From the NCBI GenBank assembly GCA_964409555.1, contig CAYPDP010000002.1, positions 6,975 through 70,974 on the forward strand: a stretch of 64,000 bases of DNA, read 5' to 3'. Below, in pieces: positions 5,070 through 61,134 of this stretch (position 1 is the stretch's first letter; every line of letters starts with the position of its first letter). The DNA comes from Candidatus Woesearchaeota archaeon (GTDB taxonomy: Archaea > Nanobdellota > Nanobdellia > Pacearchaeales > GW2011-AR1). The notes beneath the pieces are model-generated. The model did no database searches and had not been told where the DNA came from. It saw only the letters and a list, made by a program, of their open reading frames with translations. A program made the position numbers and the translations under genes.

Positions 5070-7016
5070 ATGTGGAATTTATATAAAAAAGAGGGTGAAG
5101 AATTTCTAAAACCATTAATTTTTTCTAATGGAAAATCTCAAGAAGATATTGTTAAAGAAGTGTTAGACTCTATCAAAGATGGTTGTAAAATTATTTTTAT
5201 ACAAGGTATGTGTGGAACTGGGAAGTCTGCAATAGCTCTTAATATTGCAAAAAATCTTGGTAAAACATCCATAGTTGTTCCTGGAAAAAATCTGCAAAAC
5301 CAATATAAAAAAGATTATGAAGAAAATAAATATATTCTTAAAAAAAATGGTGAAAAATTAAAAATAAGTGTAATAACTGGAAGAAATAATCACAAATGCA
5401 AATTCTTAGAGGATAACATAAATGCTATACCTGTAATAAAAAAAGAAGTTAATTCAAGATTAAATGATATTTTTGAAAATAAAAGAGATGAAATTAGAAA
5501 TATAATAAATAATGATTTATCTGCAGATAATTTCAATATTCCCTGTAAAATAGAAATAAAAGAAAAAAATTGGAATAAAATTAAAGAATATTTAAAGCAA
5601 AATAAAAAAATTAATTATGAAAATTTTTTGGATTTAAAAGATGTAAAAAGAATTTCTGTAGCAGGTGTTTGTCCTTATTGGAGTCCAGTATTACCTGAAA
5701 AATATGATTTAAAAGTTTTTGAAGATTCAAAAAAAGAATACTATCAAGGACTTAATGGCACAAAATTTGTAATTTATAAAAGAAAATCCGGATGTAAATT
5801 TTATGAACAATTTAGTTATTTTGTAAACTCAGATGTGATTGTATTTAATTCTTTAAAATATAAACTTGAATCTGCAATTAATAGAAAACCCCTTACTGAA
5901 GTTGAAATAATTGATGAGTGTGATGATTTTTTAGATAGTTTTTCAAATCAAAAAGTGATTAATATAGATAGAATTCAAAATTCATTAAACAAGATAATTA
6001 ATAAAAATGAGTCAATGGAAAGAGTAACTAGAGAAATAAATAGTATTTTGAAAGATATAAAATCTGACATGAGAATCATGGAGGCAATTTATTCAAATGA
6101 AATAATTCCTTTAAAGGAAACTTCCATTTATGATTTACTTAAAATTTTCTTAAATTCGGAAGAATTTTTGGAAAACCTTGATGAGGAAAACTATATCTTT
6201 GATATTGAAGAGACAGCAAAAATGTTTGAGGATTTTTTTGATGACTCTTATGTTACTTTTAATAAAAAGGAGAATAATTTAACAGCAAGTATTGTAACAA
6301 CTAATCTTGAAAAAAAATTTAAAGAAATGCTTAATAAAAATAAAATTCTTGTTTTAATGTCAGGAACATTACATTCAAATGAAGTTCTTAGAGATATTTT
6401 TGGTTTAAAAGATTTTAAAATAATTGAAGCAGAGACAAGACAGCAAGGAAAAATTGAAGTTCAAAAAACAGGATTTGAAATTGATTGTAAATATCAAAAT
6501 TTTATAAATAGAGTATTTTCTAGAGAAGATTATTTGAAATCATTGAGTAAATGTGTTTCTATTGCAAAAAAACCAGCTTTAGTTCATATAAATGGATTTA
6601 ATGATTTACCTACAGAAAAAGAAAAAAGAGAATTTGGAATAGATAATTTAATTAGCAGAGAAAGACTTAGAGAAATACAAATAGAGGATAAAACAGGATT
6701 TTTAATTGAAAAATTTAAAAAAGGTCAGACAAATATTCTTTTTTCTACAAGATGTGCAAGGGGAATTGATTTTCCAGGAGAAGAATGCAATAGTATTGTA
6801 TTTACAAAATATCCTAATCCTGATGTTAAAGATGTTTTTTGGAGAATTTTAAAAAAAATAAAACCTCAATTTTATTGGAATTTTTATAAAGATAAAGCAA
6901 AAAGAGAACTTTTACAAAAAATATATCGTGGATTGAGATCCAAAGAAGATCATATTTATCTGTTGTCTCCTGATTCAAGAGTTTTGAATGTCTTTGAAAA
7001 AAATTATATTAATTGA
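5070..7016 (+). CDS. XPD/Rad3(DinG)-family SF2 helicase with a putative 4Fe-4S domain
   Basis: Walker A GMCGTGKSAIA, DExD-like IIDECDDF, SGTL motif, and C-terminal FSTRCARGIDFPGEECNSIVFTKYPNP. Four Cys lie between motifs I and II (HKC, IPC, GVCPYW, SGCKFY). Confidence 0.7.
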   Translation: MWNLYKKEGEEFLKPLIFSNGKSQEDIVKEVLDSIKDGCKIIFIQGMCGTGKSAIALNIAKNLGKTSIVVPGKNLQNQYKKDYEENKYILKKNGEKLKISVITGRNNHKCKFLEDNINAIPVIKKEVNSRLNDIFENKRDEIRNIINNDLSADNFNIPCKIEIKEKNWNKIKEYLKQNKKINYENFLDLKDVKRISVAGVCPYWSPVLPEKYDLKVFEDSKKEYYQGLNGTKFVIYKRKSGCKFYEQFSYFVNSDVIVFNSLKYKLESAINRKPLTEVEIIDECDDFLDSFSNQKVINIDRIQNSLNKIINKNESMERVTREINSILKDIKSDMRIMEAIYSNEIIPLKETSIYDLLKIFLNSEEFLENLDEENYIFDIEETAKMFEDFFDDSYVTFNKKENNLTASIVTTNLEKKFKEMLNKNKILVLMSGTLHSNEVLRDIFGLKDFKIIEAETRQQGKIEVQKTGFEIDCKYQNFINRVFSREDYLKSLSKCVSIAKKPALVHINGFNDLPTEKEKREFGIDNLISRERLREIQIEDKTGFLIEKFKKGQTNILFSTRCARGIDFPGEECNSIVFTKYPNPDVKDVFWRILKKIKPQFYWNFYKDKAKRELLQKIYRGLRSKEDHIYLLSPDSRVLNVFEKNYIN

Positions 7017-7018
7017 AA

Positions 7019-7099
7019 CGCCCCCGCCCCGAATCGAACGGGGACGCCCCGAAGGGCCCGGATCTCAAGTCCGGTGCAATACCATTATGCGACGGAGGC
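7019..7099 (-). tRNA. tRNA-Ser(UGA), class II, no intron, CCA not encoded
   Basis: Manual fold of the minus strand. Acceptor GCCTCCG/CGGGGGC plus discriminator G. D arm GCAT-AATGGTA-TTGC. Anticodon arm CCGGA-CTTGAGA-TCCGG. Variable arm of 14 nt, GCCC-TTCG-GGGC-GT. T arm CCCCG-TTCGATT-CGGGG. Total 81 nt. Confidence 0.9.
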
Positions 7100-7117
7100 T
7101 TAATTTAAATTGCATTT

Positions 7118-7207
7118 GTGCAATACCATTAACTTCAAAATATTCTTAAACTTTTGTATTTTGAATGTCCCAGAAATTTATAATTTCTGAGTGCGACGGA
7201 GGCTTAA
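7118..7207 (-). repeat. interrupted second copy of tRNA-Ser nt 1-26
   Basis: 7192..7207 equals 7088..7103 (16/16, tgcgacggaggcttaa). 7118..7131 equals 7074..7087 (14/14, gtgcaataccatta). The two halves are separated by the 60-nt insert at 7132..7191. Confidence 0.9.
7132..7191 (-). repeat. double-hairpin insert, copy S (candidate miniature mobile element)
   Basis: Minus strand: CTCAGAAATTATAAATTTCTGGGACATTCAAAATACAAAAGTTTAAGAATATTTTGAAGT. Hairpins are CAGAAATT/AATTTCTG and TTCAAAATA/TATTTTGAA. It sits exactly between tRNA positions 12 and 13 of the duplicated copy. Confidence 0.75.
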
Positions 7208-7228
7208 ATATTAAATTAAAAGAAGGGT

Positions 7229-60557: not shown

Positions 60558-60644
60558 TGCGCGGGCCGGGGTTCGAACCCGGGTCATCTGGTTTCTTCAA
60601 TAAACTTTGGAAGCCAGAGATTCTAACCACTGAACTACCCACGC
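60558..60644 (-). tRNA. tRNA-Gly(UCC) with a 15-nt intron at 37/38
   Basis: Acceptor GCGTGGG/CCCGCGC plus A. D arm GTTC-AGTGGTTA-GAAT. Anticodon stem TCTGG/CCAGA with loop CTTCCA[intron AAGTTTATTGAAGAA, 60593..60607]A. T arm CCGGG-TTCGAAC-CCCGG. Confidence 0.9.
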
Positions 60645-60697: not shown

Positions 60698-60792
60698 CGC
60701 CCTTGGTAGGATTTGAACCTACGACCCCTTCCTTACCCTCAATTCTTATATTCATAGGAGGGAAGTGCTCTATCCAGCTGAGCTACAAGGGC
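60698..60792 (-). tRNA. tRNA-Arg(CCU) with a 21-nt intron at 37/38
   Basis: Acceptor GCCCTTG/CAAGGGC plus G. D arm GCTC-AGCTGGATA-GAGC. Anticodon stem CTTCC/GGAAG with loop CTCCTA[intron TGAATATAAGAATTGAGGGTA, 60734..60754]A. Intron GAGGG pairs with exon CCCTC. T arm GTAGG-TTCAAAT-CCTAC. Confidence 0.9.
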
Positions 60793-60800
60793 ATTTTTAA

Positions 60801-60902
60801 TAATGCGGGAGAAAGTCCTAAAAATTCTTTTAGAATTTTTGGAACTTCAAAACAAGTATATTTTGAAGTAATTCAAACCCTCTGCTCGTGTTCTAATCCT
60901 AA
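60801..60902 (-). repeat. interrupted, partly diverged second copy of the 3' third of tRNA-Leu
   Basis: 60801..60815 equals 60900..60914 (15/15, taatgcgggagaaag: acceptor 3' strand plus trailer). 60871..60885, attcaaaccctctgc, is a diverged copy of the T-arm attcgaaccctcgc. The two parts are separated by the 55-nt insert. Confidence 0.8.
60816..60870 (+). repeat. double-hairpin insert, copy D
   Basis: Plus strand: TCCTAAAAATTCTTTTAGAATTTTTGGAACTTCAAAACAAGTATATTTTGAAGTA. Hairpins are TAAAAATTCT/AGAATTTTTA and ACTTCAAAA/TTTTGAAGT. The terminal 12 nt ATATTTTGAAGT are identical to copy S. Confidence 0.7.
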
Positions 60903-60986
60903 TGCGGGAGAAAGGATTCGAACCCTCGCAGGCACTAAGCCAACGCGTTTTGAGCGCGTCCCGTTTGACCGCTCCGGCACTCCCGC
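60903..60986 (-). tRNA. tRNA-Leu(CAA), class II, no intron
   Basis: Acceptor GCGGGAG/CTCCCGC plus A. D arm CCG(G)-AGCGGTCAA-(A)CGG. Anticodon arm ACGCG-CTCAAAA-CGCGT. Long variable arm TGGCTTAGTGCCTGC. T arm GAGGG-TTCGAAT-CCTTT, with two G-U pairs. Confidence 0.85.
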
Positions 60987-61045
60987 ATAAGAACACCTAA
61001 CGGTTTTCTTATCAACTTTCCCTTGAATTTAATTTAAGGCTGATA

Positions 61046-61134
61046 AACACCTAACGGTTTTCCTTAGAAATTAAAAATTTCTGGGAATTAGAAAATTCTA
61101 TTTTAAGATTTTTCAAATTTATCAACTTTCCCTT
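61046..61134 (-). repeat. interrupted second copy of the 33-nt 5' flank of tRNA-Leu
   Basis: 61046..61062 equals 60992..61008 (17/17, aacacctaacggttttc). 61119..61134 equals 61009..61024 (16/16, ttatcaactttccctt). The two halves are contiguous in the proximal copy and split by 56 nt in the distal copy. Confidence 0.85.
61063..61118 (+). repeat. double-hairpin insert, copy U
   Basis: Plus strand: CTTAGAAATTAAAAATTTCTGGGAATTAGAAAATTCTATTTTAAGATTTTTCAAAT. The first 24 nt match copy S (minus strand) at 22/24. Confidence 0.75.

What the first reader, a model, noticed from the sequence alone, without database searches (positions are those of the whole stretch)
60816..61118. The three inserts are one family of 55-60 nt double-hairpin elements, present in both orientations and always at tRNA loci (third copy at 7132..7191)
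The sequences, as read, are as follows. Copy S is the minus strand of 7132..7191: CTCAGAAATTATAAATTTCTGGGACATTCAAAATACAAAAGTTTAAGAATATTTTGAAGT. Copy U is the plus strand of 61063..61118: CTTAGAAATTAAAAATTTCTGGGAATTAGAAAATTCTATTTTAAGATTTTTCAAAT. Copy D is the plus strand of 60816..60870: TCCTAAAAATTCTTTTAGAATTTTTGGAACTTCAAAACAAGTATATTTTGAAGTA. S and U share 22 of their first 24 nt and a TTTAAGA block. S and D share the architecture hairpin1-GGA-hairpin2 and an identical 12-nt end, ATATTTTGAAGT. Relative to the tRNA strand, S is in one orientation and U and D are in the other. This argues against spliceosome-free tRNA introns, which are strand-specific. It favours a tiny non-autonomous mobile or recombinogenic element. 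In each case an intact copy of the interrupted target lies next to it. That could mean insertion is coupled to, or only survives through, a local target duplication of 30-45 nt. I know of no described element with this combination of properties, but I cannot search.
Basis: partly seen in the sequence, partly recalled or inferred. Interest (0 to 1): 0.78.

Follow-up and report, generated by a model that had tools for sequence, protein, structure and literature searches.

The report
Double-hairpin insertion elements of DPANN archaea
The three inserts belong to a widespread, apparently undescribed family of ~50-nt two-hairpin insertion elements in Pacearchaeota/Woesearchaeota genomes, which repeatedly land in tRNA genes (and in RNase P RNA and protein genes) and, at tRNA genes, always sit in a partial duplicate beside an intact copy.

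Summary
S (7132-7191, minus), U (61063-61118, plus) and D (60816-69, plus; 54 nt, not 55) each interrupt one copy of a 30-55-nt local duplication. The intact copy lies on the tRNA side.

A 20-nt pattern from S/U found full elements in 13 DPANN genome assemblies and about 38 metagenome contigs. The consensus is CTCAGAAATTAAAAATTTCTGGG + ACTTCAAAA-loop-TTTTGAAGT, two hairpins that abut. A covariance model built only from outside copies finds exactly S, U and D in the window.

Hairpin 1 is sequence-conserved. Hairpin 2 covaries in 8 of 9 pairs. D belongs to a variant subfamily that recurs in L033.

Two syntenic relatives (L071, L077) lack the elements and the duplications, so these are derived insertions. 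They are not introns, because the BHB (bulge-helix-bulge splice motif) test fails.

The family is not confined to tRNAs. Copies occur inside RNase P RNA, in a tRNA intron, in frame in an ORF and at ORF starts. Ten different tRNAs carry a copy 12-13 nt from the 3' end, always antisense and always with an intact gene alongside, sometimes in arrays.

The best reading is a selfish, non-autonomous, structure-defined insertion element. How it moves and how the duplication arises remain unresolved. No partner gene was found.

The parts
7132..7191 (-). Element S (main subfamily, 60 nt). Hairpin 1 is CTCAGAAATT-ATA-AATTTCTGGG. Hairpin 2 is ATTCAAAATA...TATTTTGAAG(T) with an enlarged 14-nt loop.
   Evidence: Sequence. 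Covariance-model hit 51.9 bits, E = 8e-10. DNA fold z = -4.3.
7192..7217 (-). Left half of the interrupted target copy. It copies the tRNA-Ser leader plus tRNA nt 1-12. TTAAGCCTCCGTCGCA is exact; similarity continues upstream with 2 indels.
   Evidence: compare 7088-7113.
7118..7131 (-). Right half of the interrupted target copy: tRNA-Ser nt 13-26, TAATGGTATTGCAC, exact.
7100..7117 (-). Junction between the interrupted copy and the intact gene. It holds 6 nt of filler. With the adjacent copy it forms an inverted hexamer (ATTGCA at 7109-7114, TGCAAT at 7119-7124). The leader of the intact tRNA-Ser also lies here.
   Evidence: Read directly.
7019..7099 (-). Intact tRNA-Ser(TGA), the target gene of S.
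   Evidence: ARAGORN; Rfam. The orthologous locus L077 has no element and no 5' duplication.
61063..61118 (+). Element U (main subfamily, 56 nt). Hairpin 1 is intact (CTTAGAAATT-AAA-AATTTCTGGG). Hairpin 2 is degenerate.
   Evidence: Covariance-model hit 36.8 bits, E = 4e-6. Fold z = -1.4.
61047..61062 (.). Left flank of U, ACACCTAACGGTTTTC: half of the interrupted copy of the region upstream of tRNA-Leu.
   Evidence: Exact repeat of 60993-61008.
61119..61134 (.). Right flank of U, TTATCAACTTTCCCTT: the other half of the interrupted copy.
   Evidence: Exact repeat of 61009-61024.
60993..61024 (.). Intact copy of U's target, 6-37 nt upstream of the tRNA-Leu 5' end. The duplication unit extends to about 61046, including AGCCT.
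60816..60869 (+). Element D (variant subfamily, 54 nt). Hairpin 1 is TCC-T-AAAAATTCT-TTT-AGAATTTTTGGA. Hairpin 2 is ACTTCAAAA-CAAGTATA-TTTTGAAGT, identical to hairpin 2 of L015, L027 and L066.
   Evidence: Covariance-model hit 26 bits, E = 1.8e-3. Fold z = -5.5. The same hairpin-1 type occurs in L033.
60801..60815 (.). Left flank of D, TAATGCGGGAGAAAG. This is the antisense copy of the last 13 nt of tRNA-Leu plus 2 nt of trailer, and it is exact.
60870..60885 (.). Right flank of D, AATTCAAACCCTCTGC. This is a diverged antisense copy of the tRNA-Leu T-loop and T-stem, 11/16 identical.
60886..60899 (.). Filler between the fragment and the intact tRNA-Leu. GTTCTAATCC is a sense-oriented, and therefore inverted, copy of the T-loop GTTCGAATCC.
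   Evidence: Read; inverted-match score.
60902..60987 (-). Intact tRNA-Leu(CAA). Its 3' part is the target of D and its upstream region is the target of U.
   Evidence: In L071 this tRNA abuts tRNA-Arg directly, with no D block and no U block.

Best explanation
S, U and D are copies of a family of small (48-60 nt) non-coding insertion elements confined, as far as sampled, to Pacearchaeota/Woesearchaeota-type DPANN archaea. S and U belong to the main subfamily and D to a variant subfamily.

Each element is two perfect hairpins whose bases abut. C1 pairs with G23, and A24 pairs with the last T. When one strand, or the RNA, folds, the insert is extruded as a compact four-way junction and the flanking host sequence stays juxtaposed. 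This probably explains why copies persist inside RNase P RNA, in a tRNA intron and in frame in ORFs.

My reading is that these are selfish, non-autonomous DNA-level insertions, made in either orientation by a trans-acting enzyme not yet identified. That enzyme would recognise the sequence-conserved hairpin 1 and the shape of hairpin 2.

tRNA genes are a preferred target, at a site 12-13 nt from the 3' end next to the T-loop, and more rarely in the D-arm or the leader. These genes are single-copy and essential. An insertion is therefore seen only where the event, or a repair or replication template switch provoked by it, also left an intact copy. The result is the interrupted fragment, a short inverted piece, a filler, and then the intact gene.

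Shown:
- the family, its structure and covariation;
- the diversity of contexts;
- empty orthologous sites;
- a recurrent site and orientation at tRNAs;
- arrays whose copy number differs between strains;
- two subfamilies at the same site in one array.

Inferred:
- mobility itself;
- the enzyme;
- whether insertion and duplication are one event.
For: Family and structure:
- An exact 20-nt pattern gives full elements in 13 DPANN assemblies and about 38 metagenome contigs and none in viral contigs.
- On the model-fitted alignment of 37 distinct copies, 92.6% of cells are paired, against 85.7% when shuffled. Eight of the 9 hairpin-2 pairs show compensatory changes. The abutting pairs are kept in 36/37 and 37/37 copies.
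- Three sequence-unrelated subfamilies keep the same abutting two-hairpin shape, with z from -3.4 to -6.4.

Insertion rather than ancestry:
- L071 and L077 have the same gene order without the elements or the duplications.
- Contexts are heterogeneous. Copies lie inside RNase P RNA directly 5' of CR-I (the conserved GAGGAAGGTC region) in three lineages. One is a 54-nt in-frame insert in a Dus-like ORF. One lies inside a 116-nt tRNA-Asn intron. Others sit in duplicated ORF starts or 20 nt past the 23S rRNA 3' end.

tRNA targeting:
- Ten different tRNAs carry a copy at the same place, always antisense, with an exact 13-25-nt left flank and an intact gene 26-80 nt away.
- The same locus holds 2 units in L005 and 4 in L046. 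The L033 array has one D-type unit followed by three main-type units at the identical site.

Not introns: the BHB geometry fails for every element context tested, while the control intron in tRNA-Gly passes.
Against: - No transposase, integrase or nuclease turned up among 40 window ORFs. No gene recurs near copies in 37 loci.
- No presence/absence polymorphism was seen among 99.9%-identical contigs of the same strain.
- Hairpin 1 is identical over 20+ nt across organisms whose SecF is only about 75% identical. That looks more like host-level constraint than neutral junk, although the copies were ascertained with that very pattern.
- The left flank copies stay exact while S and U themselves are decayed. 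This is hard to reconcile with a simple sequence of insertion, then duplication, then neutral decay.
- Unrelated inserts that do not form double hairpins sit in the same kind of interrupted tRNA duplicate in L074 and L077. The duplication therefore cannot be explained by this element's hairpins alone.
Confidence: 0.6

Rival explanations
1. Portable promoter cassette. The core of hairpin 1 is a palindromic BRE-TATA-BRE, that is, the archaeal TFB-recognition element on both sides of a TATA box. It would be read by the universal factors TBP and TFB and fire in both directions. Under this reading the element is kept because it drives the adjacent tRNA or ORF, and its sequence conservation reflects TBP/TFB recognition rather than a transposase.
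For: - Upstream regions in the window share AAAG(A/G)TTTA(T/A)AA(A/T)T about 22-35 nt before the ATG, for example aaaggTTTAAAAATt and aaagaTTTATAAtt. Hairpin 1 reads AGAAATTAAAAATTT. S in reverse reads AGAAATTTATAATTT.
- The reverse-strand AAAAGAATTTTTAGGA of D lies 24-39 nt upstream of the 5' end of tRNA-Arg, which in L071 has no spacer of its own.
- S, U and D each lie upstream, in the direction of transcription, of a tRNA.
- Several copies sit just upstream of intact ORF starts: L020, L047/L056, L032/L062.
Against: - In a 25% GC genome, any AT-rich palindrome resembles a TATA box.
- Real promoters in the window are degenerate, whereas hairpin 1 is nearly invariant and extends into the GC-containing CTCAG/CTGGG stem.
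- The D-type and L066-type subfamilies keep the shape but not the sequence.
- Copies inside RNase P RNA and inside an ORF have no use for a promoter.
- The intact tRNA-Leu copy has its own TATA-like TTAAATTAAATT.
- No transcription data are available.
Confidence: 0.15
2. Functional RNA module. The double hairpin would be a protein-binding or structural RNA domain native to RNase P RNA and other stable RNAs, or a small RNA in its own right. Where it is flanked by antisense tRNA sequence, it could act as a guide, with a layout like an external guide sequence for RNase P (two hairpins between two antisense arms).
For: - A copy sits at the same position in RNase P RNA, sense strand, directly 5' of the CR-I sequence GAGGAAGGTC, in three divergent lineages.
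- A T.G wobble at stem position 2/22 is kept in 29 of 37 copies, which makes the fold strand-specific.
- Hairpin 2 covaries.
- At T-arm sites the flanks on the element's strand are antisense to the tRNA 3' end, and the left arm is always exact.
Against: - The flanks are sense, not antisense, for S, for the ORF-start copies, and for U relative to its target.
- The right arm is short and mutated (5-13 of 16 identical).
- Copies occur in frame in ORFs (L012) and in either orientation relative to adjacent genes.
- Relatives with identical gene order do without them.
- U is structurally decayed.
- Rfam has no match, even at E = 10.
Confidence: 0.1
3. Footprints of integrase-mediated integration. 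The tRNA-end direct repeats would be attL/attR cores left by integrative plasmids or viruses that target tRNA T-loops. The hairpin element and the fillers would be what remains of the integrated DNA.
For: - Exact 13-25-nt direct repeats cover the tRNA 3' end plus a few trailer nucleotides.
- Tandem arrays occur.
- The crossover lies at the T-loop/T-stem border, the classical sublocation for tRNA-targeting tyrosine integrases (own knowledge: Williams 2002).
- Other, unrelated inserts sit at the same place in L074 and L077.
Against: - The insert lies inside one repeat copy, not between the repeats.
- No integrase is present in the window or in the loci.
- The same element occurs at many non-tRNA sites.
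- The 'element' between the repeats would be only 85-140 nt, and it would be locus-specific, because it contains a copy of the local T-loop.
- The duplications for S and U involve the 5' part and the upstream region.
Confidence: 0.08
4. Relics of intron-bearing or split tRNA genes. The inserts would be archaeal tRNA introns at non-canonical positions (12/13, 61/62). The interrupted fragments would be the old intron-containing gene ends, left behind after intron loss.
For: - DPANN tRNAs are intron-rich. Two of the window's four tRNAs have introns that L071 lacks.
- The same position and the same orientation are seen in ten tRNAs.
- One copy lies inside a real intron (L006).
Against: - No bulge-helix-bulge motif forms at the insert boundaries (outer helix h = 0 in every case). 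The control introns score H=4, h=5, h'=2 and H=3, h=5.
- S and the T-arm copies have opposite orientations relative to the tRNA.
- U lies outside the tRNA.
- The fragments have mutated T-loops.
- The element also occurs in ORFs.
Confidence: 0.04

Closest known systems
Mitochondrial double-hairpin elements (DHE) of Allomyces and the 'repetitive hairpin-forming elements' of sponge mitochondrial DNA
   Same: Both are short non-coding repeats that fold into one or two adjacent hairpins. Stems are conserved and loops are variable. They are scattered in intergenic regions, rRNA genes and even protein genes, are not removed from transcripts, are presumed mobile, and have no known enzyme (PMC2800124; Paquin et al. 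2000 as cited there).
   Different: The host is an archaeal chromosome, not an organelle. There is no sequence relation. Here the two hairpins abut exactly. Hairpin 1 is sequence-invariant across families of organisms. There is a preferred site in tRNA genes with a fixed orientation. Insertions in tRNA genes come with a partial duplication of the gene.
Rickettsia palindromic elements (RPE)
   Same: Both are small palindromic repeats found in frame inside protein-coding genes and in RNA genes, and tolerated because they fold or loop out (own knowledge).
   Different: RPEs are 100-150 bp, bacterial, and not associated with target duplication or tRNA T-loops. There is no sequence relation.
REP/BIME elements with RAYT, and IS200/IS605-derived palindrome-associated elements (PATE)
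   Same: Both are hairpin-defined, with no terminal inverted repeats and no flanking target-site duplication. Strand-specific hairpins with mismatches are presumed to be recognised as single-stranded DNA by a trans-acting HUH-family Y1 (single-tyrosine) enzyme (own knowledge).
   Different: No conserved target tetranucleotide is seen next to the element. No TnpA or RAYT gene was found. The hairpins start at the very first and end at the very last nucleotide. Copies are not restricted to intergenic 3' ends.
Archaeal BHB tRNA introns and intron transposition in Thermoproteales
   Same: Both are similar short sequences found at the same non-canonical positions in many different tRNAs of one lineage (own knowledge: Fujishima et al. 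2010; review PMC4090602, listed).
   Different: These inserts lie in non-functional fragment copies, occur in both orientations, fail the BHB test, and also occur in ORFs and upstream regions.
tRNA gene fragments left by integrative elements
   Same: Both show direct repeats of the tRNA 3' end next to an intact tRNA gene (PMC9897764, listed; own knowledge).
   Different: The intervening DNA is only about 100 nt and there is no integrase. The conserved hairpin element sits inside the repeat. 5' fragments and upstream regions are affected too.

Membership tests
Archaeal BHB (bulge-helix-bulge) tRNA intron | Exon/intron boundaries lie in two 3-nt bulges separated by a 4-bp helix, flanked by helices (hBHBh' or the relaxed HBh') | tested here: not met
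   For S at 12/13, for the reverse complement of D and of the main-type element at 61/62, and for the RNase P copy, the outer helix h = 0 at the true boundaries, and no full motif appears within +-3 nt. Control intron in tRNA-Gly: H=4, h=5, h'=2. Control intron in tRNA-Arg: H=3, h=5 (relaxed form).
Archaeal BHB (bulge-helix-bulge) tRNA intron | Lies in the functional gene on the sense strand, in one orientation | tested here: not met
   The inserts lie in fragment copies beside intact genes. S is sense, while D and all T-arm copies are antisense.
Classical MITE | Terminal inverted repeats | tested here: not met
   The ends CTCAG... and ...GAAGT are not inverted repeats of each other.
Classical MITE | A short target-site duplication of fixed length directly flanking the element | tested here: not met
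   There are no flanking direct repeats. The duplicated target is 30-55 nt, and the element sits inside one copy.
IS200/IS605-type PATE or REP-RAYT | Subterminal imperfect hairpins, with no terminal inverted repeats and no target-site duplication | tested here: met
   Two hairpins with a conserved T.G mismatch. However, they are terminal, not subterminal.
IS200/IS605-type PATE or REP-RAYT | A conserved 4-5-nt target or cleavage motif abutting one end | tested here: inconclusive
   The left flanks end in many different sequences. The right flanks are TTT-rich (about half of the non-tRNA copies), or GATTC/GAATC at tRNAs. No single motif emerges.
IS200/IS605-type PATE or REP-RAYT | A cognate Y1 transposase or RAYT in the genome | not testable with these tools
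   None was found in 40 window ORFs or near copies in 37 loci. Whole genomes were not available.
Mitochondrial double-hairpin elements / RHE | A repeated element that folds into two adjacent hairpins and is inserted in intergenic DNA, structural RNA genes and ORFs | tested here: met
   This is a resemblance in kind only; no homology is implied and the genetic compartment is different.
Integrase att-site duplication at tRNA genes | Identical core repeats flanking an integrated element that encodes, or once encoded, an integrase | tested here: not met
   Exact repeats exist, but only 85-140 nt lie between them, there is no integrase, and the conserved element interrupts one repeat.
Any Rfam RNA family | Covariance-model match | tested here: not met
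   No hit at the elements, either at gathering scores or at E <= 10.

The most novel reading that the evidence does not exclude
The elements would be the first example of a structure-defined 'dumbbell' transposon. A roughly 50-nt single strand folds into two abutting hairpins. A conserved host junction- or nick-processing enzyme (a Holliday-junction resolvase, a Xer-type recombinase or a replication-fork enzyme) inserts it into DNA at the T-loop of tRNA genes and at other exposed sites. The reaction would by construction re-synthesise the target, so that each hit leaves an interrupted fragment plus a fresh intact gene. This would be a new mode of transposition that continually produces tRNA gene fragments. 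It could also seed introns, split tRNA genes and new promoters in DPANN archaea.
Probability: 0.17. Interest if true: 0.85.

Novelty: new variant of a known kind. Interest (0 to 1): 0.66.

Why it matters
DPANN archaea have tiny genomes, known for split, permuted and intron-rich tRNA genes whose origin is debated. Here is a conserved, lineage-wide family of minimal insertion elements that repeatedly strikes the same nucleotide of tRNA genes and leaves partial gene copies and arrays behind. It also sits inside RNase P RNA and inside coding sequence.

If the elements are mobile, they are among the smallest known and are defined by shape: two abutting hairpins that form a self-contained four-way junction. 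They would offer a concrete, testable source of tRNA gene fragmentation, insertions in stable RNAs and possibly new promoters.

There are also practical consequences:
- tRNA fragments will be mis-annotated.
- Assemblies break at the hairpins.
- The Rfam RNase P model mis-assigns P1 (the terminal helix) in these lineages.

The covariance model built here can be used directly for a genome-wide census.

Tried and rejected
- **The repeat finder on the whole window.** Swamped by AT-rich noise, so useless for this question.
- **Same-strain contigs.** They are 99.9% identical and all carry the inserts, so they give no polymorphism information. Two Logan contigs end inside hairpin 2 of D.
- **Viral contigs.** No copy.
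- **Partner gene.** Pfam on 40 window ORFs gave only housekeeping and glycosylation genes. Clustering 176 ORFs from 37 element-bearing loci gave only housekeeping families.
- **Autonomous version (hairpin 1 ... ORF ... hairpin 2).** The candidates with hairpin 1 only were either chance coding matches or partial copies. The 20-mer encodes EIKNFWD/E in L067 and in several bacterial ORFs. L011 is a partial copy.
- **First BHB script.** It had the wrong geometry and failed its own positive controls. It was replaced.
- **Supposed homology of U's target.** I first thought it matched the conserved module hosting the element in L022/L034/L040/L050/L069. On inspection the sites differ.
- **RNA-mediated origin (retro-copy of an element-bearing pre-tRNA fragment).** This was attractive because the left flank is exact and the T-loop side is error-prone. 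I set it aside because the duplications for U and S include promoter-proximal sequence that is unlikely to be transcribed.
- **Simple target-site-duplication or circle-integration models.** They do not reproduce the observed order: flank, element, copy of the other flank, inverted piece, filler, intact target.
- **Literature searches.** No description of this element was found.
Full report
**What is in the window**

The window is a roughly 25% GC archaeal segment. It carries the ribosomal protein operon, SecY, SecD/F, RpoD and a large glycosylation cluster. The closest SecF and helicase relatives are labelled Candidatus Pacearchaeota, at about 70-77% amino-acid identity.

It holds four tRNA genes, all on the minus strand:
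- tRNA-Ser(TGA), 7019-7099;
- tRNA-Leu(CAA), 60902-60987;
- two intron-containing tRNAs at 60698-60792 and 60558-60644.

- S (7132-7191, minus) splits a copy of the tRNA-Ser leader plus nt 1-26, between nt 12 and 13.
- D (60816-60869, plus; 54 nt) splits a copy of the last roughly 30 nt of tRNA-Leu, 13 nt from the 3' end.
- U (61063-61118, plus) splits a copy of the region 6-37 nt upstream of tRNA-Leu.

In each case the interrupted copy and the intact copy are units of an abutting tandem duplication of about 30-55 nt. The interrupted unit is always the one distal to the gene body.

**Is the similarity more than chance?**

- S against U is far beyond dinucleotide shuffles (0/2000). S-D is marginal (5/2000). 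U-D alone is not significant (152/2000).
- The decisive evidence comes from outside the window. The hairpin-1 pattern AGAAATTANAAATTTCTGGGA was scanned in one genome per prokaryotic species and gave 16 loci. Thirteen are Pacearchaeota, Woesearchaeota or Nanoarchaeota assemblies carrying a complete two-hairpin element. Three are bacterial chance hits without hairpin 2.
- The same scan of metagenome contigs gave 50 loci. About 38 hold true elements. The rest are mostly a bacterial ORF in which the 20-mer encodes KEIKNFWE.
- No viral contig has the pattern.
- The consensus is CTCAGAAATTAAAAATTTCTGGG immediately followed by ACTTCAAAA-loop-TTTTGAAGT, 48-50 nt in most copies.
- A covariance model built from 13 copies in other organisms finds exactly three sites in the 64-kb window: S (51.9 bits), U (36.8) and D (26.0; E about 2e-3). 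It finds nothing in four syntenic loci from relatives.
- D's second hairpin, including its 8-nt loop, is identical to that of L015, L027/58/63 and L066. D's unusual first hairpin (TCC-T-AAAAATTCT/AGAATTTTTGGA) recurs in L033, with 88% identity over 33 nt. A similar bulged first hairpin occurs in a second insertion within the RNase P RNA of L042 (read). D is therefore a member of a variant subfamily.

**Anatomy**

- On the model-fitted alignment of 37 distinct copies, 92.6% of cells are standard pairs, against 85.7% after shuffling and no more than 58% when the partners are slid.
- Hairpin 1 hardly varies. Part of this is ascertainment, but the stem outside the search pattern is also kept, including a T.G wobble in 29 of 37 copies.
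- Eight of the nine hairpin-2 pairs show compensatory double changes.
- The closing pairs C1:G23 (36/37) and A24:T-last (37/37) mean the two hairpins abut with no linker. A folded strand therefore extrudes the whole insert and leaves the flanks adjacent.
- The same abutting two-hairpin shape is kept by sequence-different subfamilies: D, the L033 D-type, and the extra 54-nt module in L066. DNA folds give z from -3.4 to -6.4. U is degenerate, at z = -1.4.
- No Rfam family matches.

**Where the family sits**

1. **tRNA T-arm sites.** Ten different tRNAs (Leu-TAG twice, Leu-CAA, Ser-TGA, Ser-GGA, Gln, Asn, Asp, Glu, Lys) have the element in a downstream copy of their own 3' end.
   - It lies 12-13 nt from the 3' end, next to the T-loop, and is always antisense to the tRNA.
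   - The left flank is an exact copy of 13-25 nt. The right flank is shorter and less exact (5-13 of 16).
   - The intact gene lies 26-80 nt away.
   - D is of this type.
2. **Arrays.** The same tRNA-Leu locus holds 2 units in L005 and 4 in L046. L033 has four units; the most distal carries a D-type element and the three proximal carry the main type, all at the identical site. That pattern indicates repeated hits over time.
3. **RNase P RNA.** The element lies inside the RNA, sense strand, directly 5' of CTGAGGAAGGTC (CR-I, the conserved region at P4) in three divergent lineages.
   - The true P1 helix (GAGTGGGATAG ... CTATTTCCCACTC) lies about 70 nt upstream.
   - The Rfam alignment mis-assigns the element's GGGAC as P1.
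4. **Other sites.**
   - Inside a 116-nt intron of tRNA-Asn (L006).
   - As a 54-nt in-frame insert in codons 8-25 of a Dus-like ORF (L012).
   - In duplicated ORF starts, with the intact start downstream (L020, L047/L056).
   - 20 nt beyond a 23S rRNA 3' end (L010).
   - In a conserved intergenic module between 5S rRNA and tRNA-Leu. In L069 this module is duplicated, with one copy intact.

**Derived, not ancestral**

- L071 (SecF 76% identical) has RpoD - tRNA-Leu(CAA) - tRNA-Arg(CCT) - tRNA-Gly(TCC) - SecF within 326 nt, against 741 nt in the window. tRNA-Leu abuts tRNA-Arg there. There is no element and no duplication.
- L077 (helicase 71% identical) has helicase - tRNA-Ser(TGA) - small ORF - AMP phosphorylase. 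The 5' flank of its tRNA-Ser is plain.

The S, U and D blocks are therefore insertions or duplications in the window's lineage, not conserved leaders or trailers.

**Not introns**

I tested the standard bulge-helix-bulge geometry.
- The window's tRNA-Gly intron passes (H=4, h=5, h'=2).
- The tRNA-Arg intron passes in relaxed form (H=3, h=5).
- Every element context fails, with no outer helix at the true boundaries.

Orientation also differs between S and the T-arm copies.

**The duplications**

The layout is more than a tandem repeat. The order is:
- interrupted copy;
- short loop;
- an inverted, element-free piece of the same target (6 nt for S, about 10 nt for D, 9-25 nt elsewhere, for example L057, L066, L021);
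- filler;
- intact gene.

This duplication-inversion-duplication pattern, with small fillers, resembles products of template switching or snap-back synthesis during replication or repair. That part is inference.

Three observations restrain any simple model.
- The left flank copies are exact even where the element is decayed (S, U).
- In four of the six T-arm fragments whose T-loop contains CpG, the same C56 is changed to T.
- Unrelated inserts without a double-hairpin fold occupy the same kind of interrupted duplicate. A roughly 56-nt repeat in L074 splits a 5' fragment of tRNA-Leu after nt 11 and also a 3' fragment of tRNA-Gly. A 59-nt insert in L077 splits a 3' fragment of tRNA-Ser.

The pattern 'fragment plus intact gene' is thus a general feature of small insertions into tRNA genes in these genomes. 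There are two possible reasons. One is survivorship: only hits that leave an intact copy of an essential single-copy gene persist. The other is a shared insertion mechanism that re-creates the target.

**Partner and function**

- No transposase, integrase or nuclease domain was found in 40 window ORFs.
- No gene recurs next to copies in 37 loci.
- The core of hairpin 1, AGAAA-TTAAAAAT, resembles the local promoter consensus (aaag[ag]TTTA[ta]AA[at]t, 22-35 nt before start codons).
- D's hairpin 1 lies at a promoter-like distance from tRNA-Arg.

A palindromic BRE-TATA-BRE that fires both ways is therefore a live alternative, or an added consequence of insertion. It does not account for the copies inside RNase P RNA or inside an ORF, or for subfamilies that keep the shape but not the sequence.

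**Comparison with known elements**

The nearest analogues in kind are:
- the mitochondrial double-hairpin and repetitive hairpin-forming elements (PMC2800124);
- Rickettsia palindromic elements, REP/BIME, and IS200/IS605-derived palindromic elements (own knowledge).

The family fails the defining tests for BHB introns, classical MITEs and integrase att remnants. It meets only the generic features of the hairpin-element classes. Four literature searches found no description of it.

**Verdict**

- Two corrections apply. There are at least two subfamilies, and the family is not restricted to tRNA loci.
- The transposition enzyme, and whether insertion and duplication are coupled, remain unknown.

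Noticed in passing
window 60698-60792 and 60558-60644: The tRNA-Arg(CCT) and tRNA-Gly(TCC) genes carry introns of about 21 and 15 nt at or near the canonical position. Their orthologues in the syntenic relative L071 lack these introns. ARAGORN in intron mode mis-calls the first gene as Thr(GGT).
   Followed up: partly
L074 2090-2181 and 2813-2868: A second, unrelated repeat of about 56 nt (shared core CTCACATCAAGGGCGA) interrupts a duplicated 5' fragment of tRNA-Leu(AAG) after nt 11. It also interrupts a duplicated 3' fragment of tRNA-Gly. It does not fold as a double hairpin. The architecture is the same as for the element studied here.
   Followed up: partly
L077 3433-3530: A 59-nt GC-richer insert with no significant fold lies in a duplicated 3' fragment of tRNA-Ser(TGA), upstream of the intact gene's 3' end. 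This is the orthologue of the window's tRNA-Ser.
   Followed up: partly
L058 1175-1320; window 60993-61045: In L058 the last roughly 45 nt of tRNA-Thr plus its trailer are tandemly duplicated without any hairpin element. The 56-nt filler is about 80% similar to the region just upstream of the window's tRNA-Leu (AGGGAAAGTTGATAAGAAAACCGTTAGGTGT). This may be a conserved tRNA promoter/leader cassette.
   Followed up: no
L025 1478-1860, L037 220-610, L042 5920-6375: The RNase P RNAs of these DPANN lineages have about 120 nt of extra hairpins between P2 and P4. The Rfam archaeal RNase P model starts its alignment inside the element (at GGGAC) and misses the real P1 helix about 70 nt upstream. L042 carries a second element-like double hairpin at 6120-6172.
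   Followed up: partly
window 60875 (and L014, L015, L021 fragment copies): In four of six T-arm fragment copies whose T-loop contains TTCGA, the same base is changed: C56 to T on the tRNA-sense strand. The reciprocal change on the other strand is never seen. No explanation so far (CpG deamination on one strand, or something else?).
   Followed up: no
window 60861 (L003, L004 contig ends): Two independent Logan assemblies of the same strain both terminate in the loop of hairpin 2 of element D. The hairpins may therefore break short-read assemblies.
   Followed up: no
L016, L026, L030, L048, L049, L061, L070, L067: The 20-nt hairpin-1 core also occurs by chance in protein-coding sequence, where it encodes (K/T)EIKNFW(E/D). 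This accounts for the bacterial hits in the collection scans.
   Followed up: yes
L040 about 330-540: A roughly 150-nt segment containing the element and a conserved module (GGAGGCATTTAGAAA ... TCACCATTCAGTGCTTTGAGGAAG) is flanked by 19-nt direct repeats, GCCAACTTGGATGAYAAAA. In L069 the same module is present twice, once with and once without the element.
   Followed up: no
window 7148-7162 (loop of hairpin 2 of S): The 14-nt loop expansion unique to S reads AAAAGTTTAAGAAT on the tRNA strand. This is a good match to the local BRE/TATA promoter consensus, and it ends about 42 nt upstream of the tRNA-Ser 5' end.
   Followed up: no
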